Origin: Escherichia coli | GTDB taxonomy: Bacteria; Pseudomonadota; Gammaproteobacteria; Enterobacterales; Enterobacteriaceae | DNA length: 64,000 bases | Strand: one strand, 5' to 3' | Assembly (NCBI RefSeq): GCF_045037415.1 | Contig: NZ_CP173438.1 | Part shown: piece by piece, positions 48,560 through 56,925 of the stretch | Layout of the letters: each line of letters begins with the position of its first letter | How positions within the stretch are numbered: the first letter of the stretch is position 1 | Notes under the pieces: generated by a model | What the model was told of the DNA's origin: nothing | What the model saw: the letters and a program-made list of their open reading frames with translations, nothing else | Database searches by the model: none | Made by a program: the position numbers and the translations under genes

Positions 48560-48580
48560 TTACGAAACATCCTGCCAGAG

Positions 48581-48608
48581 CCGACGCCAGTGTGCGTCGG
48601 TTTTTTTT
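48581..48608 (+). terminator. Rho-independent terminator after thyA
   Basis: CCGACGC-cagtgt-GCGTCGG followed by T8. Confidence 0.8.
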
Positions 48609-48743
48609 GCCCTCCGTTAAATTCTTCGAGACACCTTCCCGAAATTTTGCAACGTCCTGCAACGACGTAAATAGTCCGGAAGATGCGCCGAAGAAATAGA
48701 AACTGGCCCTCGTCTTTTTTTCTCCTCGCTCCATACTGCCGGC

Positions 48744-49214
48744 ATGAAAAAACAACGTGGTTATACGCTGATTGAAACGCTGGTCGCGATGCTGATTCTG
48801 GTCATGCTAAGCGCAAGTGGGCTCTATGGCTGGCAATACTGGCAGCAGTCGCAACGGCTTTGGCAAACCGCCAGCCAGGCGCGGGACTATTTGCTCTATT
48901 TACGTGAAGATGCCAACTGGCATAACCGCGACCACAGTATCAGTCTTATCAGGGAGGGGACGTTATGGTGCCTTGTGAGTTCCGTTGCTGGGGCGAATAC
49001 CTGTCATGGCAGTTCACCATTGGTCTTTGTGCCGCGCTGGCCCGAAGTCGAAATGAGCGACCTGACACCTTCGCTTGCTTTCTTTGGCCTGCGCAATACC
49101 GCATGGGCCGGGCATATTCGCTTCAAAAACTCAACGGGCGAGTGGTGGCTAGTGGTTTCGCCGTGGGGAAGACTCCGGCTTTGTCAGCAAGGAGAAACAG
49201 AAGGATGCCTGTAA
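48744..49214 (+). CDS. ppdA: Prepilin-peptidase-dependent pseudopilin A
   Basis: 156 aa; prepilin N-terminus [22 protein letters not shown]. Confidence 0.9.
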
Positions 49215-49768
49215 AAGAGCAAGGTTTTTCTCTGCTGGAAGTGTTGATTGCTATGGCGATCAGTAGCGTATTGTTGCTGGGGGCTGCACGCTTTCTGCCT
49301 GCGTTACAGCGTGAAAGTTTAACGAACACCCGTAAGCTGGCGCTGGAAGATGAAATCTGGCTGCGGGTATTTACCGTCGCGAAGCATCTCCAGAGGGCGG
49401 GTTATTGCCATGGCAGCTGTACGGGCGAAGGGCTGGAAATTGTCGGACAGGGTGACTGTGTCATTGTGCAGTGGGATGCGAACAGTAATGGTATCTGGGA
49501 TCGCGAACCGGTAAAAGAGTCCGACCAGATTGGATTTCGTCTGAAGGAGCATGTGCTGGAAACGCTACGCGGTGCGACATCCTGTGAAGGTAAGGGCTGG
49601 GATAAAGTCACTAATCCGGATGCCATCATTATCGACACTTTTCAGGTCGTACGTCAGGATGTCAGCGGCTTCTCGCCGGTGTTGACGGTTAATATGCACG
49701 CTGCCAGCAAGGCTGATCCGCAAACCGTGGTGGATGCCAGCTATAGCGTGACAGGATCCAACCTGTGA
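49205..49768 (+). CDS. ppdB: Prepilin-peptidase-dependent pseudopilin B
   Basis: Start at [21 protein letters not shown] (187 aa); the longer 267-aa track ORF overlaps ppdA. Confidence 0.88.
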
Positions 49769-50172
49769 ACCGCGAAAAGGGTGTTTCGTCACTGGCTCTG
49801 GTCCTGATGCTGCTGATTTTGGGTAGCTTGCTATTGCAAGGAATGAGTCAGCAGGATCGCAGTTTTGCTTCTCGCGTGAGCATGGAAAGTCAGTCATTGC
49901 GCCGCCAGGCCATCGTTCAGTCGGCGCTGGAGTGGGGAAAAATGCACTCCTGGCAGACGCTGCCCGCAGTTCAGTGCTTACTGTATGCTGCCACCGGTGC
50001 CCGGGTTTGTCTGCGTTTACTGGCAGATAATGAAGCCTTATTGATTGCTGGTTATGAAGGCGTTTCGTTGTGGCGAACAGGCGAAGTCATCGATGGAAAC
50101 ATTGTTTTTTCGCCACGCGGCTGGAGCGATTTTTGTCCGCTGAAAGAGAGGGCGTTATGTCAGCTTCCCTGA
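49765..50172 (+). CDS. ygdB: Pseudopilin-like protein with N-terminal hydrophobic segment
   Basis: 135 aa, GTG start; 4-nt overlap with ppdB. Confidence 0.85.
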
Positions 50173-50480
50173 GGAATCAACAAGGCTTTAGTCTGCCGGA
50201 GGTAATGTTGGCGATGGTGTTGATGGTGATGATTGTCACTGCGTTATCGGGTTTCCAGCGAACATTAATGAACAGTCTTGCCAGCAGAAACCAGTACCAA
50301 CAGCTCTGGCGGCATGGCTGGCAGCAAACGCAACTGCGCGCGATTTCGCCACCTGCTAACTGGCAGGTCAACCGAATGCAGACATCGCAGGCGGGATGTG
50401 TCAGCATCAGCGTTACGCTAGTTTCACCCGGGGGCAGAGAAGGCGAGATGACCCGCCTGCATTGCCCGAATCGTCAGTAG
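50157..50480 (+). CDS. ppdC: Prepilin-peptidase-dependent pseudopilin C
   Basis: Start at [24 protein letters not shown] (107 aa); overlaps ygdB by 16 nt. Confidence 0.88.
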
Positions 50481-50492
50481 TCAGGAGCCGCT

Positions 50493-53400
50493 ATGTTAAG
50501 GGTCTACCATTCCAATCGTCTGGACGTGCTGGAAGCGTTGATGGAGTTTATTGTCGAACGCGAACGGCTGGACGATCCTTTCGAACCAGAGATGATTCTG
50601 GTGCAAAGTACCGGTATGGCACAGTGGCTGCAAATGACCCTGTCGCAAAAGTTTGGTATTGCGGCAAACATTGATTTTCCGCTGCCAGCGAGCTTTATCT
50701 GGGATATGTTCGTCCGGGTGTTACCGGAGATCCCCAAAGAGAGCGCCTTTAACAAACAGAGCATGAGCTGGAAACTGATGACACTGCTGCCGCAACTGTT
50801 GGAGCGCGAAGACTTTACCCTGTTGCGGCATTATCTGACTGACGATAGTGACAAGCGAAAACTGTTCCAGCTTTCTTCAAAAGCGGCGGACCTGTTTGAC
50901 CAGTATCTGGTCTATCGTCCGGACTGGCTGGCACAGTGGGAAACAGGACATCTGGTAGAAGGGTTGGGAGAAGCACAGGCCTGGCAAGCGCCGTTGTGGA
51001 AGGCGTTGGTGGAATATACCGACGAACTTGGGCAACCGCGCTGGCACCGCGCCAATCTCTATCAGCGCTTTATCGAAACGCTGGAGTCCGCGACGACCTG
51101 CCCGCCGGGGTTACCTTCGCGCGTCTTTATATGCGGTATTTCCGCGTTACCGCCTGTTTATCTCCAGGCGCTACAGGCGCTGGGTAAACATATTGAAATC
51201 CATCTCCTGTTTACCAACCCCTGCCGTTATTACTGGGGCGACATTAAAGATCCCGCTTATCTGGCGAAACTACTGACTCGCCAGCGCCGACACAGTTTTG
51301 AAGATCGCGAATTACCGCTATTTCGCGACAGCGAAAATGCCGGGCAGCTCTTTAACAGCGATGGTGAACAGGATGTCGGCAACCCGCTGCTGGCTTCATG
51401 GGGCAAGCTTGGGCGCGACTACATTTATCTCCTTTCTGACCTGGAGAGCAGCCAGGAGCTGGACGCTTTTGTCGATGTGACGCCAGATAACCTGCTGCAT
51501 AATATTCAGTCTGACATTCTGGAACTGGAAAACCGCGCCGTTGCTGGTGTGAACATCGAAGAGTTTTCCCGTAGCGATAACAAACGCCCGCTTGATCCAC
51601 TGGATAGCAGTATCACCTTCCACGTTTGCCATAGCCCGCAGCGTGAAGTTGAAGTTTTACACGATCGCCTGCTGGCGATGCTGGAGGAAGACCCGACACT
51701 TACTCCGCGCGACATCATCGTGATGGTGGCTGATATCGACAGCTACAGTCCGTTTATTCAGGCTGTGTTTGGTAGCGCACCTGCGGATCGTTACCTGCCT
51801 TACGCCATTTCCGACCGTCGGGCGCGGCAGTCGCATCCTGTACTTGAAGCGTTTATCAGCCTGTTATCGTTGCCAGACAGCCGCTTTGTGTCGGAAGACG
51901 TGCTGGCATTACTGGATGTGCCGGTGCTGGCGGCGCGGTTTGACATCACCGAAGAAGGGCTGCGTTATTTACGCCAGTGGGTCAACGAGTCCGGCATTCG
52001 TTGGGGGATAGATGACGACAACGTTCGCGAGCTGGAACTTCCCGCTACCGGTCAACACACCTGGCGGTTTGGCCTGACGCGCATGTTGCTGGGCTACGCG
52101 ATGGAGAGCGCGCAGGGCGAGTGGCAATCGGTTCTACCTTATGATGAATCGAGCGGCTTAATTGCAGAACTGGTGGGGCATCTGGCTTCACTGCTAATGC
52201 AGCTAAATATCTGGCGTCGCGGGCTGGCGCAGGAGCGTCCGCTGGAAGAGTGGTTGCCGGTTTGTCGCGATATGCTCAACGCCTTCTTCCTGCCGGATGC
52301 GGAAACCGAAGCGGCGATGACGCTGATCGAACAACAATGGCAGGCGATTATCGCCGAAGGTTTAGGTGCGCAGTATGGCGACGCGGTGCCGCTGTCACTA
52401 TTGCGTGATGAACTGGCACAGCGCCTGGATCAAGAACGTATCAGCCAGCGTTTTCTCGCCGGACCGGTTAACATTTGTACTCTGATGCCAATGCGTTCAA
52501 TTCCGTTCAAAGTGGTTTGCCTGCTGGGAATGAACGACGGCGTTTATCCACGTCAGCTTGCGCCATTGGGCTTTGATCTGATGAGCCAGAAACCGAAGCG
52601 TGGCGACCGTAGCCGTCGCGATGACGACCGCTATCTGTTCCTGGAAGCGTTAATTTCCGCGCAGCAAAAACTCTATATCAGCTATATCGGGCGTTCCATT
52701 CAGGATAACAGTGAACGTTTCCCGTCGGTACTGGTGCAGGAACTGATCGACTACATCGGGCAAAGCCATTATCTACCGGGCGATGAAGCGCTCAACTGTG
52801 ATGAAAGCGAGGCAAGGGTAAAAGCGCATCTTACTTGCCTCCATACCCGAATGCCGTTTGATCCACAAAACTACCAGCCAGGCGAACGACAAAGTTATGC
52901 TCGTGAATGGCTACCTGCGGCCAGCCAGGCTGGTAAAGCACATTCTGAATTTGTTCAGCCGCTGCCATTTACCTTACCGGAAACCGTGCCGCTGGAAACG
53001 CTACAACGATTCTGGGCACATCCGGTGCGGGCATTTTTCCAGATGCGTTTGCAGGTGAACTTCCGTACCGAAGACAGCGAAATCCCCGACACCGAGCCAT
53101 TTATTCTGGAAGGACTTAGCCGTTATCAAATCAATCAGCAGTTATTGAATGCACTGGTTGAGCAGGATGATGCCGAACGCTTGTTCCGTCGCTTCCGGGC
53201 GGCAGGGGATTTACCGTATGGCGCTTTTGGTGAAATTTTCTGGGAAACGCAGTGTCAGGAGATGCAGCAGCTTGCCGACAGAGTCATTGCCTGTCGCCAG
53301 CCGGGGCAGAGTATGGAGATTGATCTCGCCTGCAACGGTGTGCAAATAACGGGCTGGTTGCCGCAGGTGCAGCCGGATGGCCTGTTGCGCTGGCGTCCCT

Positions 53401-53861
53401 CTTTATTAAGTGTGGCGCAGGGAATGCAACTTTGGCTGGAACACCTTGTCTACTGTGCCAGCGGTGGTAATGGTGAAAGTCGCCTTTTTCTACGCAAAGA
53501 CGGCGAGTGGCGTTTTCCGCCGCTTGCAGCCGAACAGGCTTTGCATTACCTCTCACAACTGATTGAGGGGTATCGTGAAGGAATGTCCGCGCCATTGCTG
53601 GTGTTACCTGAAAGTGGCGGCGCGTGGCTAAAAACCTGTTATGACGCGCAAAACGATGCCATGCTGGATGACGATTCCACGTTGCAAAAAGCCCGTACGA
53701 AATTCCTTCAGGCTTACGAAGGCAACATGATGGTGCGTGGCGAAGGTGATGATATCTGGTATCAACGGCTCTGGCGGCAATTAACACCAGAGACAATGGA
53801 GGCTATCGTTGAACAGTCGCAACGTTTCCTGTTACCGCTGTTTCGCTTTAATCAGTCATGA
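50493..53861 (+). CDS. recC: Exodeoxyribonuclease V gamma subunit
   Basis: 1122 aa; N-terminus MLRVYHSNRLDVLEALM. Confidence 0.97.
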   Translation: MLRVYHSNRLDVLEALMEFIVERERLDDPFEPEMILVQSTGMAQWLQMTLSQKFGIAANIDFPLPASFIWDMFVRVLPEIPKESAFNKQSMSWKLMTLLPQLLEREDFTLLRHYLTDDSDKRKLFQLSSKAADLFDQYLVYRPDWLAQWETGHLVEGLGEAQAWQAPLWKALVEYTDELGQPRWHRANLYQRFIETLESATTCPPGLPSRVFICGISALPPVYLQALQALGKHIEIHLLFTNPCRYYWGDIKDPAYLAKLLTRQRRHSFEDRELPLFRDSENAGQLFNSDGEQDVGNPLLASWGKLGRDYIYLLSDLESSQELDAFVDVTPDNLLHNIQSDILELENRAVAGVNIEEFSRSDNKRPLDPLDSSITFHVCHSPQREVEVLHDRLLAMLEEDPTLTPRDIIVMVADIDSYSPFIQAVFGSAPADRYLPYAISDRRARQSHPVLEAFISLLSLPDSRFVSEDVLALLDVPVLAARFDITEEGLRYLRQWVNESGIRWGIDDDNVRELELPATGQHTWRFGLTRMLLGYAMESAQGEWQSVLPYDESSGLIAELVGHLASLLMQLNIWRRGLAQERPLEEWLPVCRDMLNAFFLPDAETEAAMTLIEQQWQAIIAEGLGAQYGDAVPLSLLRDELAQRLDQERISQRFLAGPVNICTLMPMRSIPFKVVCLLGMNDGVYPRQLAPLGFDLMSQKPKRGDRSRRDDDRYLFLEALISAQQKLYISYIGRSIQDNSERFPSVLVQELIDYIGQSHYLPGDEALNCDESEARVKAHLTCLHTRMPFDPQNYQPGERQSYAREWLPAASQAGKAHSEFVQPLPFTLPETVPLETLQRFWAHPVRAFFQMRLQVNFRTEDSEIPDTEPFILEGLSRYQINQQLLNALVEQDDAERLFRRFRAAGDLPYGAFGEIFWETQCQEMQQLADRVIACRQPGQSMEIDLACNGVQITGWLPQVQPDGLLRWRPSLLSVAQGMQLWLEHLVYCASGGNGESRLFLRKDGEWRFPPLAAEQALHYLSQLIEGYREGMSAPLLVLPESGGAWLKTCYDAQNDAMLDDDSTLQKARTKFLQAYEGNMMVRGEGDDIWYQRLWRQLTPETMEAIVEQSQRFLLPLFRFNQS

Positions 53862-54036
53862 GTGTTGTATAAAAATTGCGCAATCTATCCGCTTACTTTA
53901 TGATGCGCACCAGTCACGGACTGATGGTTATATAGACATAGGCTGACTCGTTCAGCACAAGATTAAATTCTGGCAGATGATTTGCGTTAACGTGTTGAAT
54001 CTGGCCAGAAAATAAAGTTGATTATGAGGTCCGTGA

Positions 54037-56925
54037 ATGCCCCGCAGCATCTGGTTCAAAGCATTATTGTTGTTTGTTGCCCTCTGGGCACCCTTAAGTC
54101 AGGCAGAAACGGGATGGCAGCCGATTCAGGAAACCATCCGTAAAAGTGATAAAGATAACCGCCAGTATCAGGCTATACGTCTGGATAACGGTATGGTGGT
54201 CTTACTGGTTTCTGATCCGCAGGCAGTTAAATCGCTCTCGGCGCTGGTGGTGCCCGTTGGGTCGCTGGAAGATCCTGAGGCGTACCAGGGGCTGGCACAT
54301 TACCTTGAACATATGAGTCTGATGGGGTCGAAAAAGTATCCGCAGGCTGACAGTCTGGCCGAATATCTCAAAATGCACGGCGGCAGTCACAATGCCAGCA
54401 CGGCACCGTATCGCACGGCTTTCTATCTGGAAGTTGAGAACGATGCCTTACCCGGTGCGGTAGACCGCCTGGCCGATGCTATTGCAGAACCCTTGCTCGA
54501 CAAGAAATACGCCGAACGTGAGCGTAATGCAGTGAATGCCGAATTAACCATGGCGCGTACGCGTGACGGGATGCGCATGGCACAGGTCAGCGCAGAAACC
54601 ATTAACCCGGCACACCCCGGTTCAAAGTTTTCTGGTGGTAACCTCGAAACTTTAAGCGACAAACCAGGTAATCCGGTACAGCAGGCGCTGAAAGATTTCC
54701 ACGAGAAGTACTATTCCGCCAATCTGATGAAGGCGGTTATTTACAGCAATAAACCGTTGCCGGAGTTGGCGAAAATGGCGGCGGACACCTTTGGTCGCGT
54801 GCCGAACAAAGAGAGCAAAAAACCGGAAATCACCGTGCCGGTAGTCACCGACGCGCAAAAGGGCATTATCATTCATTACGTCCCGGCGCTGCCGCGTAAA
54901 GTTCTGCGCGTTGAGTTTCGCATCGATAACAATTCAGCGAAGTTCCGTAGTAAAACGGATGAATTGATTACCTATCTGATTGGTAATCGCAGCCCTGGTA
55001 CACTTTCTGACTGGCTGCAAAAGCAGGGATTAGTTGAGGGCATTAGCGCCAATTCCGATCCTATCGTCAACGGCAACAGCGGCGTATTAGCGATCTCTGC
55101 GTCTTTAACCGATAAAGGTCTGGCGAATCGCGATCAGGTTGTGGCGGCCATTTTTAGCTACCTCAATCTGTTACGTGAAAAAGGGATCGATAAACAATAC
55201 TTCGATGAACTGGCGAATGTGCTGGATATCGACTTCCGTTATCCGTCAATCACCCGTGATATGGATTACGTCGAATGGCTGGCAGATACCATGATTCGCG
55301 TTCCTGTTGAGCATACACTGGATGCAGTCAATATTGCCGATCGGTACGACGCTAAAGCGGTAAAAGAACGTCTGGCGATGATGACGCCACAGAATGCGCG
55401 TATCTGGTATATCAGCCCGAAAGAGCCGCACAACAAAACGGCTTACTTTGTCGATGCGCCGTATCAGGTCGATAAAATTAGCGCACAAACTTTCGCTGAC
55501 TGGCAGAAAAAAGCCGCCAATATTGCGCTCTCCTTACCGGAGCTTAACCCCTATATTCCTGACGATTTCTCGCTGATTAAGTCAGAGAAGAAATACGACC
55601 ATCCAGAGTTGATTGTTGATGAGTCGAATCTGCGCGTGGTGTATGCGCCAAGCCGTTATTTTGCCAGCGAGCCCAAAGCTGATGTCAGCCTGATTTTGCG
55701 TAATCCGAAAGCCATGGACAGCGCCCGCAATCAGGTGATGTTTGCACTCAATGATTATCTCGCAGGGCTGGCGCTTGATCAGTTAAGCAACCAGGCGTCG
55801 GTTGGTGGCATAAGTTTTTCCACCAATGCTAACAACGGCCTTATGGTTAATGCTAATGGTTACACCCAGCGTCTGCCGCAGCTGTTCCAGGCTCTGCTGG
55901 AGGGCTACTTTAGCTATACCGCTACGGAAGATCAGCTTGAGCAGGCGAAGTCCTGGTATAACCAGATGATGGATTCCGCAGAAAAGGGCAAAGCGTTCGA
56001 GCAGGCGATTATGCCCGCGCAGATGCTCTCGCAAGTGCCGTACTTCTCGCGAGATGAACGGCGCAAAATTTTGCCCTCCATTACGTTGAAAGAGGTGCTG
56101 GCCTATCGCGACGCCTTAAAATCAGGGGCTAGACCAGAGTTTATGGTTATCGGCAACATGACTGAAGCCCAGGCAATAACGCTGGCACGCCATGTGCAAA
56201 AACAGTTGGGCGCTGATGGTTCAGAGTGGTGTCGTAACAAAGATGTCGTGGTCGATAAAAAACAATCCGTCATCTTTGAAAAAGCCGGTAACAGCACCGA
56301 CTCCGCACTGGCAGCGGTATTTGTACCGACTGGCTACGATGAATACACCAGCTCAGCGTATAGTTCTCTGTTGGGGCAGATCGTACAGCCGTGGTTCTAC
56401 AATCAGTTGCGTACCGAAGAACAGTTGGGCTATGCCGTGTTTGCGTTTCCAATGAGCGTGGGGCGTCAGTGGGGCATGGGCTTCCTTTTGCAAAGCAATG
56501 ATAAACAGCCTTCATTCTTGTGGGAGCGTTACAAGGCGTTTTTCCCAACCGCAGAGGCAAAATTGCGGGCGATGAAGCCAGAAGAGTTTGCGCAAATCCA
56601 GCAGGCGGTAATTACCCAGATGCTGCAGGCACCGCAAACGCTCGGCGAAGAAGCATCGAAGTTAAGTAAAGATTTCGATCGCGGCAATATGCGCTTCGAT
56701 TCGCGTGATAAAATCGTGGCCCAGATAAAACTGCTGACGCCGCAAAAAATTGCTGATTTCTTCCATCAGGCGGTGGTCGAGCCGCAAGGTATGGCTATTC
56801 TGTCGCAGATTTCCGGCAGCCAGAATGGGAAAGCCGAATATGTGCATCCTGAAGGCTGGAAAGTGTGGGAGAACGTCAGCGCGTTGCAGCAAACAATGCC
56901 CCTGATGAGTGAAAAGAATGAGTGA
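54037..56925 (+). CDS. ptrA: Periplasmic protease III (pitrilysin, M16 family)
   Basis: 962 aa; signal peptide; inverted zinc motif HYLEHM. Confidence 0.97.
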   Translation: MPRSIWFKALLLFVALWAPLSQAETGWQPIQETIRKSDKDNRQYQAIRLDNGMVVLLVSDPQAVKSLSALVVPVGSLEDPEAYQGLAHYLEHMSLMGSKKYPQADSLAEYLKMHGGSHNASTAPYRTAFYLEVENDALPGAVDRLADAIAEPLLDKKYAERERNAVNAELTMARTRDGMRMAQVSAETINPAHPGSKFSGGNLETLSDKPGNPVQQALKDFHEKYYSANLMKAVIYSNKPLPELAKMAADTFGRVPNKESKKPEITVPVVTDAQKGIIIHYVPALPRKVLRVEFRIDNNSAKFRSKTDELITYLIGNRSPGTLSDWLQKQGLVEGISANSDPIVNGNSGVLAISASLTDKGLANRDQVVAAIFSYLNLLREKGIDKQYFDELANVLDIDFRYPSITRDMDYVEWLADTMIRVPVEHTLDAVNIADRYDAKAVKERLAMMTPQNARIWYISPKEPHNKTAYFVDAPYQVDKISAQTFADWQKKAANIALSLPELNPYIPDDFSLIKSEKKYDHPELIVDESNLRVVYAPSRYFASEPKADVSLILRNPKAMDSARNQVMFALNDYLAGLALDQLSNQASVGGISFSTNANNGLMVNANGYTQRLPQLFQALLEGYFSYTATEDQLEQAKSWYNQMMDSAEKGKAFEQAIMPAQMLSQVPYFSRDERRKILPSITLKEVLAYRDALKSGARPEFMVIGNMTEAQAITLARHVQKQLGADGSEWCRNKDVVVDKKQSVIFEKAGNSTDSALAAVFVPTGYDEYTSSAYSSLLGQIVQPWFYNQLRTEEQLGYAVFAFPMSVGRQWGMGFLLQSNDKQPSFLWERYKAFFPTAEAKLRAMKPEEFAQIQQAVITQMLQAPQTLGEEASKLSKDFDRGNMRFDSRDKIVAQIKLLTPQKIADFFHQAVVEPQGMAILSQISGSQNGKAEYVHPEGWKVWENVSALQQTMPLMSEKNE

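What the first reader, a model, noticed from the sequence alone, without database searches (positions are those of the whole stretch)
48744..50492. Four pseudopilin genes translationally fused into the recC operon
ppdA, ppdB, ygdB and ppdC all start with prepilin-type hydrophobic N-termini and overlap one another by 10, 4 and 16 nt; recC begins 12 nt after ppdC. Apparent cotranscription of minor-pilin-like proteins with the RecBCD recombinase is an odd pairing. It suggests either a cryptic type IV pilus or type II secretion remnant, or a link between DNA handling and a pseudopilus; that link is speculation.
Basis: partly seen in the sequence, partly recalled or inferred. Interest (0 to 1): 0.4.

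Follow-up and report, generated by a model that had tools for sequence, protein, structure and literature searches.

The report
E. coli minor-pilin operon beside recC
These are the well-known E. coli genes ppdA-ppdB-ygdB-ppdC, which encode the small starter subunits of a DNA-uptake-type pilus and sit directly in front of the repair gene recC; the arrangement is real and conserved but already described, and recC very probably keeps its own promoter hidden inside ppdC.

Summary
ppdA, ppdB, ygdB and ppdC overlap by 10, 4 and 16 nt, and recC starts 12 nt after ppdC. The window is E. coli chromosome, and 5,425 of 5,426 complete genomes carry the locus.

The pairing is not new. The literature lists the operon as ppdAB-ygdB-ppdC-recC. 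It describes the four proteins as type IV pilus minor pilins that prime fibre assembly, places them in the Sxy/CRP-S competence regulon, and equates them with Haemophilus comNOPQ, which is also next to recC.

My additions:
- thyA-ppd-recC synteny holds in 75 of 80 Enterobacterales species and in a Pasteurellaceae locus, but in none of six other gammaproteobacterial recC loci.
- YgdB, annotated only as DUF2509, models as a pilin fold.
- A CRP-S-like site lies upstream of ppdA.
- A 30-nt block inside ppdC (50379-50408) shows almost no synonymous change across 57 species and reads as a weak extended -10 promoter about 80 nt upstream of recC.

So recC is not "translationally fused". It most likely has its own constitutive promoter and also receives read-through from ppdA, because no terminator intervenes. 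Verdict: already known, low interest.

The parts
48577..48608 (+). thyA intrinsic terminator (GC-rich hairpin plus T8). It insulates the ppd genes from thyA.
   Evidence: RNA fold gives -16.6 kcal/mol, with the hairpin at 48577-48604 followed by TTTTTTTT. The block is conserved in the intergenic alignment of 65 species.
48622..48643 (+). CRP-S-like site upstream of ppdA: TTCTTCGAGACACCTTCCCGAA. The left half TTCGA carries the diagnostic C6. The right half TTCCC is degenerate.
   Evidence: Phylogenetic footprint: C at position 6 in 54 of 65 species and T in 2. The same aligned position holds canonical TGCG(A/C)-N6-TCGCA in Shimwellia, Pantoea and Candidatus Pantoea persica, while Kosakonia keeps a perfect right half TCGCA. 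In E. coli alone the match is only 6 of 10 core bases.
48648..48663 (+). Two conserved direct repeats, TGCAAC-N4-TGCAAC, between the CRP-S-like site and ppdA. Their function is unknown; they may be the -35 region of the ppdA promoter.
   Evidence: They are the most conserved columns of the thyA-ppdA intergenic alignment apart from the terminator.
48744..49214 (+). ppdA, a minor pilin of 156 aa (leader MKKQRG, then YTLIE). It has no recognisable Shine-Dalgarno sequence.
   Evidence: NCBIfam NF007800 at 249.7 bits and TIGR02532 at 24.3 bits, with weak GspH and ComGD similarity. RefSeq annotation. 23% identity over the full length to the ComN-like protein of Rodentibacter.
49205..49768 (+). ppdB, a minor pilin of 187 aa (leader MPVKEQG, then FSLLE). 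Its start overlaps the ppdA stop by 10 nt.
   Evidence: NCBIfam NF007848 at 329.8 bits and TIGR02532 at 29.4 bits, with weak GspJ similarity. The overlap is -10 or -7 in 65 of 81 loci.
49765..50172 (+). ygdB, 135 aa, annotated DUF2509. It is a non-canonical minor pilin (leader MNREKG, then VSSLA, with no Glu at +5). It has a GTG start in a 4-nt overlap (GTGA) with ppdB.
50157..50480 (+). ppdC, a minor pilin of 107 aa (leader [10 protein letters not shown], then FSLPE). It overlaps ygdB by 16 nt.
   Evidence: NF007660 at 216.3 bits and TIGR02532 at 24.5 bits. The overlap is -16 or -19 in 52 of 81 loci.
50379..50407 (+). Candidate recC promoter embedded in ppdC codons 75-84. The -35 is CAGACA (50379-50384), followed by a 17-nt spacer, an extended -10 TG (50399-50400) and a -10 CAGCAT (50402-50407). 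The predicted start is near 50414, which gives a leader of about 79 nt.
   Evidence: Six of the eight codons with near-zero synonymous variation, out of 428 informative codons in the five genes across 57 species, cluster here. In a permutation test, 0 of 200,000 shuffles reached the observed value. The block is invariant in about 50 species while the spacer varies. There is no RNA structure or covariation, no Rfam match and no conserved overlapping ORF. The promoter reading itself is inference.
50483..50487 (+). recC Shine-Dalgarno sequence AGGAG, inside the 12-nt ppdC-recC spacer.
   Evidence: Read from the sequence. AGTCAGGAG is invariant or nearly so in the 16-species alignment.
50493..53861 (+). 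recC, the gamma subunit of exonuclease V (RecBCD), 1122 aa.
   Evidence: ORF and RefSeq annotation. Homologues carry PF04257 RecC_N.

Best explanation
ppdA-ppdB-ygdB-ppdC is the minor-pilin operon of the E. coli type IVa (PpdD/Hof) pilus. This pilus is the enterobacterial counterpart of the Haemophilus comNOPQ DNA-uptake genes.

The four proteins are made from one mRNA with overlapping stop and start codons, so they are translationally coupled and produced in matched amounts (inferred). After leader cleavage by a prepilin peptidase, they form the priming or tip complex that starts fibre assembly. This role comes from the literature: they can replace PulHIJK in priming the PulG pseudopilus.

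Transcription starts downstream of the thyA terminator, at a promoter with a CRP-S-type site. That promoter is silent unless Sxy (TfoX) and cAMP-CRP are present (site shown by footprint here; regulation from the literature).

recC lies 12 nt downstream with its own ribosome-binding site. It is most likely served by two routes:
1. A weak constitutive sigma-70 promoter with an extended -10, embedded in the 3' part of ppdC. The conservation is shown here; its function as a promoter is inferred.
2. Read-through from the ppdA promoter when competence genes are induced, because no terminator intervenes (inferred).

The ppd-recC adjacency is an old synteny shared by Enterobacterales and Pasteurellaceae, not a translational fusion.
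For: Identity and anatomy.

Pilin nature of YgdB.

Literature:
- The operon is named ppdAB-ygdB-ppdC-recC (PMC3936743).
- Genes b2822-b2826 form one transcription-unit cluster holding 4 transcription units and no predicted intrinsic terminators (PMC4634151 supplement).
- PpdAB-YgdB-PpdC prime PulG assembly (PMC5131608 citing Cisneros 2012).
- The genes are used as minor pilins to rebuild an E. coli pilus (10.1101/856302).
- The four ppd genes next to recC are treated as orthologues of H. influenzae pulG-HI0941, in the CRP-S regulon (PMC1635313).
- recC is described as its own, constitutively expressed operon (PMC12342828 and PMC6536506).

Synteny: thyA-ppdA-ppdB-ygdB-ppdC-recC is found in 75 of 80 Enterobacterales species, and four more lack only thyA. 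Four small overlapping genes sit in front of recC in Rodentibacter.

CRP-S footprint.

Internal promoter. Promoter-like TTGCGC-16-TAGAGT and TAGGCA-17-TAGAGT motifs occur in the longer ppdC-recC spacers of Yersinia and Pantoea.

Independence of recC: an IS element has destroyed ppdA in Y. pestis, and an extra gene is inserted between ppdC and recC in two Erwinia.

No terminator.
Against: - The embedded promoter matches the sigma-70 consensus poorly (4/6 and 3/6, plus TG) and fell below the threshold of the promoter scan. No transcription start site data could be retrieved: the SMRT-Cappable-seq supplements had no entry for these genes, and the Conway 2014 supplements are not held.
- The E. coli CRP-S-like site has only 6 of 10 core matches and lacks G17. 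The published ppdA site could not be read, because Sinha 2009 is not held.
- Read-through into recC after Sxy induction was not verified in any source I could read.
- Similarity between YgdB and the Pasteurellaceae ComP-like protein is limited to a C-terminal WSDF motif (hhalign probability 6.6%).
Confidence: 0.72

Rival explanations
1. This is one obligatory operon. recC has no promoter of its own and is expressed only as the fifth cistron of the ppdA transcript, with translation coupled to ppdC.
For: The genes share a strand, the gap is 12 nt and there is no terminator. Databases list the operon as ppdAB-ygdB-ppdC-recC.
Against: - The ppd and hof genes are reported as silent without Sxy, whereas RecBCD expression is constitutive and recC is described as having its own promoter.
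- There is a strong nucleotide-level constraint with promoter anatomy inside ppdC.
- Y. pestis keeps recC even though IS100 has truncated ppdA and removed its upstream region.
- Erwinia loci carry more than 1.2 kb inserted between ppdC and recC.
- The transcription-unit cluster contains 4 distinct units rather than 1.
Confidence: 0.08
2. The adjacency is only inherited gene order. ppd transcripts end before or at recC (for example by Rho-dependent termination or rapid decay), and recC is expressed solely from its own promoter. On this view there is no regulatory or functional link between the pilins and RecBCD.
For: - recC has a likely promoter of its own.
- The link is broken without obvious consequence in Erwinia and Y. 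pestis.
- The link is absent outside Enterobacterales and Pasteurellaceae.
- The ptrA insertion between recC and recB shows that this locus tolerates unrelated neighbours.
Against: There is no terminator hairpin in the junction. ppdC is translated up to 12 nt before recC, which leaves little untranslated RNA for Rho to load on. The same-orientation adjacency has persisted across two orders.
Confidence: 0.3
3. The ppd genes are a decaying remnant of a type II secretion or type IV pilus system with no present function.
For: Transcription was reported as undetectable in standard laboratory conditions. ppdA has no Shine-Dalgarno sequence. The genes are degraded in the symbiont Candidatus Pantoea persica and in Y. 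pestis.
Against: - The ORFs are intact in 5,425 of 5,426 E. coli genomes.
- Order, overlaps and N-terminal motifs are conserved in 75 of 80 Enterobacterales species.
- Cysteines and the WSDFCP motif of YgdB are conserved.
- The literature reports functional priming of fibres and use of the genes in pilus reconstitution.
Confidence: 0.04
4. The invariant 30-nt block in ppdC (50379-50408) is not a promoter. It is some other cis element, such as a protein-binding site, an RNase or sRNA target on the mRNA, or an antisense promoter.
For: The consensus match is weak. On the minus strand the same bases read CTGACA-N17, a 5/6 match to the -35 consensus (read from the sequence). In loci L054 and L055 the block stays in ppdC although recC is 106 nt further away.
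Against: - The conserved bases coincide with a -35 hexamer, a TG and a -10 hexamer, separated by a variable 17-nt spacer.
- The minus-strand reading lacks an A at -11.
- There is no covariation or stable fold, no Rfam family and no conserved alternative ORF.
- Relatives with longer spacers carry promoter-like motifs at the equivalent place.
Confidence: 0.22

Closest known systems
E. coli K-12 / EHEC ppdAB-ygdB-ppdC (b2826-b2823), the minor pilins of the PpdD (HofBC, HofMNOPQ) type IVa pilus
   Same: These are the same genes. The DNA is 100% identical to an annotated E. coli chromosome, and the NCBIfam equivalog models are hit far above their cutoffs.
   Different: Nothing differs. This is the described locus.
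Haemophilus influenzae comNOPQ (HI0938-HI0941), a CRP-S/Sxy-regulated operon required for DNA uptake
   Same: Four small overlapping genes with pilin-type N-termini lie directly upstream of recC in the same orientation (Rodentibacter locus), preceded by a CRP-S site (TTTTGCGATTCGCATCGTAAAA). The literature treats them as orthologues.
   Different: Sequence similarity is weak: PpdA/ComN 23% identity, PpdB/ComO in the N-terminus only, YgdB/ComP a WSDF motif only. Protein sizes differ (171/224/235/60-101 aa against 156/187/135/107 aa). The E. coli CRP-S site is degenerate. A role in DNA uptake is shown for Haemophilus but was not tested here for E. coli.
Type II secretion minor pseudopilins GspH-GspI-GspJ-GspK (PulHIJK) and type IVa FimU-PilV-PilW-PilX
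   Same: Both are sets of four minor subunits that prime fibre assembly. Three members have Glu at +5 and one (GspK/PilX; here YgdB) lacks it. The YgdB model matches GspI and GspK folds. There is weak HMM similarity of PpdA to GspH and of PpdB to GspJ. The literature reports cross-complementation of pulHIJK.
   Different: No Gsp equivalog model reaches its cutoff. YgdB (135 aa) lacks the large insertion domain of GspK (about 280-325 aa). On the inferred equivalences the gene order differs (H-like, J-like, K-like, I-like). The genes are not inside a gsp or pil assembly cluster; they sit next to recC.
Complex operons with internal promoters inside upstream coding sequence (as for ptrA-recB, whose ribosome-binding site lies within ptrA)
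   Same: A downstream housekeeping gene is served by a weak promoter embedded in the preceding ORF, plus possible read-through.
   Different: Here the internal promoter is predicted only, from synonymous-site conservation.

Membership tests
Type IV pilin / pseudopilin (class III signal peptide) | A short basic leader ending in Gly, followed by a hydrophobic N-terminal helix of about 20 residues | tested here: met
   All four proteins have it: MKKQRG|[21 protein letters not shown]|[20 protein letters not shown]|[24 protein letters not shown]|[14 protein letters not shown].
Type IV pilin / pseudopilin (class III signal peptide) | Glu at +5 and a match to the GFxxxE motif model (TIGR02532) | tested here: met
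   PpdA scores 24.3, PpdB 29.4 and PpdC 24.5 bits against a cutoff of 16.3. The feature is NOT met by YgdB, which has Ala at +5 and no hit. This is the usual exception of the GspK/PilX-type member.
Type IV pilin / pseudopilin (class III signal peptide) | Pilin fold: a long N-terminal alpha-helix packed on an antiparallel beta-sheet | tested here: met
Type IV pilin / pseudopilin (class III signal peptide) | Leader cleavage and N-methylation by a prepilin peptidase; incorporation into or priming of a fibre | not testable with these tools
   Literature only: PpdAB-YgdB-PpdC prime PulG assembly, and the genes are used with gspO in a pilus reconstitution.
CRP-S (Sxy-dependent) competence regulon promoter | A 22-bp CRP site with C6 and G17 (core TGCGA-N6-TCGCA) upstream of the operon | tested here: inconclusive
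   In E. coli, 48622-48643 has TTCGA-N6-TTCCC: C6 is present, G17 is absent, and 6 of 10 core bases match. The aligned site has C6 in 54 of 65 species and is canonical in Shimwellia, Pantoea and Candidatus Pantoea persica.
CRP-S (Sxy-dependent) competence regulon promoter | Induction that requires Sxy, CRP and cAMP | not testable with these tools
   Stated in PMC12616744, citing Sinha 2009 and Jaskolska & Gerdes 2015. The primary papers are not held.
Single operon ppdAB-ygdB-ppdC-recC | Same strand, short or negative intergenic distances, and no terminator between members | tested here: met
   Distances are -10, -4, -16 and +12 nt. No terminator-like site lies in the ppdC 3' region or the ppdC-recC junction; the two + strand matches inside the operon (49242 in ppdB, 49809 in ygdB) are weak and within the number expected by chance. 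No intrinsic terminator is predicted for b2822-b2826.
Single operon ppdAB-ygdB-ppdC-recC | One promoter serving all members, with no internal promoter | tested here: not met
   A conserved promoter-like element lies inside ppdC. The database cluster holds 4 transcription units. The RecBCD literature gives recC its own promoter. The locus is better described as a complex operon.
Single operon ppdAB-ygdB-ppdC-recC | A transcript that spans the ppdC-recC junction | not testable with these tools
   No usable transcript-end data could be retrieved.
Orthologues of Pasteurellaceae comNOPQ | Four small pilin-like genes immediately upstream of recC in the same orientation | tested here: met
   Rodentibacter locus L082: genes of 171, 224, 235 and 60-101 aa, with recC 36 nt downstream. 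The same layout is seen in 75 of 80 Enterobacterales species.
Orthologues of Pasteurellaceae comNOPQ | Detectable sequence homology, member by member | tested here: inconclusive
   PpdA/ComN: E 2e-4, 23% identity over the full length. PpdB/ComO: E 1e-6, N-terminal 62 aa only. YgdB/ComP: hhalign probability 6.6%, C-terminal WSDF motif only. PpdC/ComQ was not compared.

The most novel reading that the evidence does not exclude
The ancient ppd-recC adjacency is functional. When Sxy and cAMP-CRP switch on the DNA-uptake pilus genes, transcription from the ppdA promoter runs through the terminator-less junction and raises RecC above its constitutive level of about 5 molecules per cell. RecB and RecD, which are made from the separate ptrA-recB-recD operon, are not raised. 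This would shift RecBCD subunit balance exactly when foreign DNA enters the cell. The embedded promoter in ppdC supplies only the basal level.
Probability: 0.15. Interest if true: 0.45.

Novelty: already known. Interest (0 to 1): 0.15.

Why it matters
As it stands, this is textbook E. coli gene order, and its link to competence has been in print since 2006. The part that could still matter is regulatory. RecBCD levels are extremely low and are thought to be unregulated. If competence induction reads through into recC, that would be a first example of conditional control of one RecBCD subunit, and it would give a rationale for a synteny kept across Enterobacterales and Pasteurellaceae. The embedded promoter prediction also matters in practice. 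Deletions or recoding of ppdC, for example in genome-minimisation or codon-reassignment projects, could inadvertently cripple recC expression.

Tried and rejected
- A naive scan for a canonical CRP or CRP-S palindrome upstream of ppdA in E. coli alone found nothing convincing (best core 6-7 of 10). The site became visible only through the 65-species footprint.
- The consensus promoter scan found no + strand promoter between thyA and recC, and it also missed the obvious thyA terminator.
- I tried to obtain transcription start or transcription-unit data. The SMRT-Cappable-seq supplements have no entry for these genes. The Conway 2014 supplements are not held. Finch 1986, Sinha 2009 and VanWagoner 2004 are not held.
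- An RNA-structure explanation for the conserved block in ppdC is rejected: the consensus fold is -9 kcal/mol with no compensatory pairs and there is no Rfam match.
- An overlapping-ORF explanation is rejected: alternative-frame ORFs starting in the block vary from 6 to 92 aa on the plus strand and from 11 to 197 aa on the minus strand across species.
- A second candidate -10 (TACGCT, 50414-50419) is rejected because its key positions are not conserved.
- A PpdC-RecC fused protein in the metagenome collection (P0012) is a double-frameshift assembly artefact, not a natural fusion.
- A sequence search of solved structures found nothing for PpdA, YgdB or PpdC, and only a marginal Thermus pilin hit for PpdB.
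- The genome-collection scan returned only Enterobacterales. Breadth outside that order rests on seven individual look-ups.
Full report
**1. The observation**

The window around 48.7-50.5 kb holds five co-directional ORFs downstream of thyA:
- ppdA: 48744-49214
- ppdB: 49205-49768
- ygdB: 49765-50172, GTG start
- ppdC: 50157-50480
- recC: 50493-53861

The stretch 48560-50520 is 100% identical to annotated E. coli chromosomes. It is present at 95% identity or more in 5,425 of 5,426 complete E. coli genomes, and RefSeq gives the same gene names.

thyA ends in a strong hairpin followed by a T8 terminator at 48577-48608, so the ppd genes are insulated from upstream transcription. No terminator-like site lies in the 3' part of ppdC or in the ppdC-recC junction. 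The two + strand matches inside ppdB and ygdB are weak and within chance expectation.

**2. What the four proteins are**

PpdA, PpdB and PpdC hit their own NCBIfam equivalog models at 216-330 bits. They also hit the prepilin GFxxxE domain model above its cutoff, with weak side hits to GspH, GspJ, GspI, PilV and the ComG minor pilins.

So "four pseudopilin genes" is right, with YgdB as the non-canonical member that lacks Glu5, as GspK and PilX do in their sets. No solved structure of any of the four was found by sequence.

**3. What is already published**

- The operon is named ppdAB-ygdB-ppdC-recC in a transcript-stability study (PMC3936743).
- A compilation of RegulonDB, Palsson-lab and DOOR data lists b2822-b2826 as one transcription-unit cluster with four transcription units and no predicted intrinsic terminator (PMC4634151 supplement).
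- PpdAB-YgdB-PpdC are called the E. coli type IV pilus minor pilins and can prime PulG pseudopilus assembly in a pulHIJK mutant (PMC5131608 citing Cisneros 2012).
- They are used as minor pilins in an engineered E. coli pilus chassis (10.1101/856302).
[quoted passage not shown] They treated them as orthologues of H. influenzae pulG-HI0941 in the Sxy-dependent CRP-S competence regulon.
- A 2025 paper (PMC12616744) repeats that comNOPQ lies upstream of recC in the same orientation across Pasteurellaceae. It says the same holds for ppdAB-ygdB-ppdC in Enterobacteriaceae, that comNOPQ is needed for DNA uptake, and that ppdA is the most strongly Sxy-induced gene in E. coli.
- The RecBCD literature describes recC as a separate, constitutively expressed operon (PMC12342828 and PMC6536506).

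The "odd pairing" and the speculative link to DNA handling are therefore both known.

**4. How far the synteny extends**

A RecC-based scan of one genome per species returned 80 Enterobacterales loci. phmmer with the E. coli proteins gave these results:
- thyA-ppdA-ppdB-ygdB-ppdC directly upstream of recC in 75 loci.
- The four ppd genes without thyA in 4 more loci. Three of these were too short upstream; the fourth is Yersinia pestis, described below.
- One locus lacked only ppdC, and one locus was too short to hold any of the genes.

The overlaps are conserved across all 81 loci, including the E. coli reference:
- ppdA/ppdB: -10 or -7 in 65 loci.
- ppdB/ygdB: -4 in 69 loci.
- ygdB/ppdC: -16 or -19 in 52 loci.

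The ppdC-recC spacer varies with lineage:
- 7-36 nt in 59 loci, mostly Enterobacteriaceae.
- 75-204 nt in 18 loci, mostly Erwiniaceae and Yersiniaceae.
- More than 1.2 kb in two Erwinia. One of them was inspected and has a gene for a 249-aa secreted protein inserted there.

Other exceptions are informative. The genes are degraded in Candidatus Pantoea persica. In Yersinia pestis an IS100-type element truncates ppdA and has displaced thyA, yet ppdB to recC remain.

A Pasteurellaceae locus (Rodentibacter) has four overlapping small genes and then recC 36 nt later. Six other gammaproteobacterial recC loci have unrelated genes upstream. These include Aeromonas, Psychromonas and four unnamed relatives with 42-54% RecC identity. 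In those whose contig extends past recC, recB follows directly, with no ptrA.

Pairwise similarity between the E. coli and Rodentibacter proteins is weak but present.

**5. The ppdA promoter region**

In E. coli alone no convincing CRP palindrome is seen. An alignment of the roughly 184-nt thyA-ppdA spacer from 65 species shows three conserved blocks:
- The thyA terminator.
- A 22-mer at 48622-48643, TTCTTCGAGACACCTTCCCGAA.
- Two direct TGCAAC repeats at 48648-48663.

In the 22-mer, position 6 is C in 54 of 65 species. This is the base that distinguishes CRP-S from ordinary CRP sites, according to PMC1635313 and 10.1101/284836. In Shimwellia, Pantoea and Candidatus Pantoea persica the aligned sequence is a near-canonical TGCG(A/C)-N6-TCGCA, and Kosakonia keeps a perfect right half TCGCA. 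The Rodentibacter comN-like gene is preceded by TTTTGCGATTCGCATCGTAAAA.

I read 48622-48643 as the E. coli CRP-S site in a degenerate form. The TGCAAC repeats remain unexplained.

**6. Does recC depend on that promoter?**

I threaded codons onto protein alignments for 57 Enterobacteriaceae species. I then measured synonymous variation at the 428 codons whose amino acid is conserved and degenerate, in ppdA, ppdB, ygdB, ppdC and the first 300 codons of recC.

The mean normalised synonymous entropy is 0.77. Only eight codons are near zero, and six of them cluster in ppdC codons 75-84, at 50379-50408. The best 10-codon window has a mean of 0.075. None of 200,000 random draws reached this value, against 460 windows tested.

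The invariant bases are CAGACA and GATGTGTCAGCATC, separated by a variable stretch. They fit the following promoter:
- A -35 hexamer, cAGACA.
- A 17-nt spacer.
- An extended -10 TG.
- A -10 hexamer, cAgcAT, with the critical A at -11 and T at -7.
- A predicted start near 50414.

Alternative readings fail. There is no RNA fold or covariation, no Rfam family and no conserved overlapping ORF.

In Yersiniaceae and Erwiniaceae, where the spacer is longer, it contains conserved TTGCGC-16-TAGAGT or TAGGCA-17-TAGAGT motifs, and most of these spacers show no stable hairpin followed by a T-run. One weak candidate was seen in Erwinia endophytica L062.

The published view is that recC is constitutive and separately transcribed. 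The Y. pestis and Erwinia rearrangements point the same way. Together with these, the evidence makes an independent recC promoter likely. In Enterobacteriaceae that promoter is embedded in ppdC. Read-through from the ppdA promoter is not excluded and is physically plausible, but I could not find data for it.

**7. Mechanism, with what is shown and what is inferred**

Shown here:
- Gene anatomy.
- The pilin motifs, and the pilin fold of YgdB.
- Conservation of order and overlaps.
- Absence of a terminator.
- A CRP-S-like footprint.
- A nucleotide-level constraint inside ppdC.

From the literature:
- The minor-pilin priming function.
- Sxy/CRP-S induction.
- The requirement for comNOPQ in DNA uptake.
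- Constitutive recBCD expression.

Inferred:
- Translational coupling that gives matched amounts of the four pilins.
- The constrained block being the recC promoter.
- Read-through into recC under competence induction.

**8. Verdict**

The finding is accurate but describes a known locus with a known interpretation. "Translationally fused into the recC operon" is too strong. The only possibly new element is the strong synonymous constraint marking a likely recC promoter inside ppdC. It is a modest, testable detail and may already be in the 1986 sequence paper, which I could not read.

Noticed in passing
window 48648-48663: Two direct repeats, TGCAAC-N4-TGCAAC, just downstream of the CRP-S-like site are the most conserved bases of the thyA-ppdA spacer across 65 species. 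They match no motif I could name. They might be the -35 region of the ppdA promoter or a contact for the unknown action of Sxy.
   Followed up: partly
window 48724-48743: ppdA, the first gene of the operon, has no recognisable Shine-Dalgarno sequence (ctccatactgccggcATG), unlike ppdB, ygdB, ppdC and recC. The nanowire-chassis preprint replaced the ppdA ribosome-binding site to improve translation.
   Followed up: no
window 53862-56925 (ptrA), compared with L084, L085, L087, L088: In the non-Enterobacterales relatives that were sampled and whose contig extends past recC, recB follows recC directly. In this window ptrA (pitrilysin) sits between them. This agrees with the published idea that ptrA was inserted by horizontal transfer.
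   Followed up: partly
L067 2357-4402 (Yersinia pestis NCTC5923): An IS100-type element (340-aa and 260-aa ORFs) lies immediately upstream of a 60-codon remnant of ppdA. thyA is no longer adjacent, and a polyketide/NRPS-like gene lies upstream instead. ppdB, ygdB, ppdC and recC remain.
   Followed up: partly
L063 4776-6000 and L072 (Erwinia spp.): An insertion of 1.2-1.6 kb lies between ppdC and recC. In L063, the only one inspected, it encodes a 249-aa protein with a signal peptide and looks like a small outer-membrane beta-barrel; it was not identified further.
   Followed up: no
L078 (Candidatus Pantoea persica), L065 (Candidatus Erwinia dacicola): In the insect-symbiont genome L078 the ppd genes are fragmentary (ppdB and ygdB in pieces, no ppdC) although recC is kept. 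L065 is too short upstream to judge.
   Followed up: no
window 50478-50495; protein P0012: ppdC and recC are in the same reading frame, separated only by TAG and four codons. The gap is 12 or 15 nt in 40 of the related loci. A 'PpdC-RecC fusion' protein in the metagenome collection proved to be a double-frameshift assembly artefact.
   Followed up: yes
L056 1810-2013 (Serratia sp. H1w): The 204-nt ppdC-recC spacer contains a long GC-rich palindromic element (…CCCCTCTCCCTGTGGGAGAGGGTTAGGGTGAGGGGG…, fold -86.7 kcal/mol). It looks like a REP/ERIC-type repeat rather than a terminator.
   Followed up: no
YgdB alignment A3 (window 49765-50169): Four invariant cysteines (C71, C82, C124, C132) and an invariant C-terminal W-x-D-x-C-P motif occur in all 61 YgdB orthologues. 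A similar SWSDFKP ends the Pasteurellaceae ComP-like protein. This may be a conserved interaction or disulfide motif.
   Followed up: partly
window 48577-48608: The consensus terminator scan did not report the clear thyA terminator that folding shows. A negative result from that scan should therefore not be over-trusted.
   Followed up: yes
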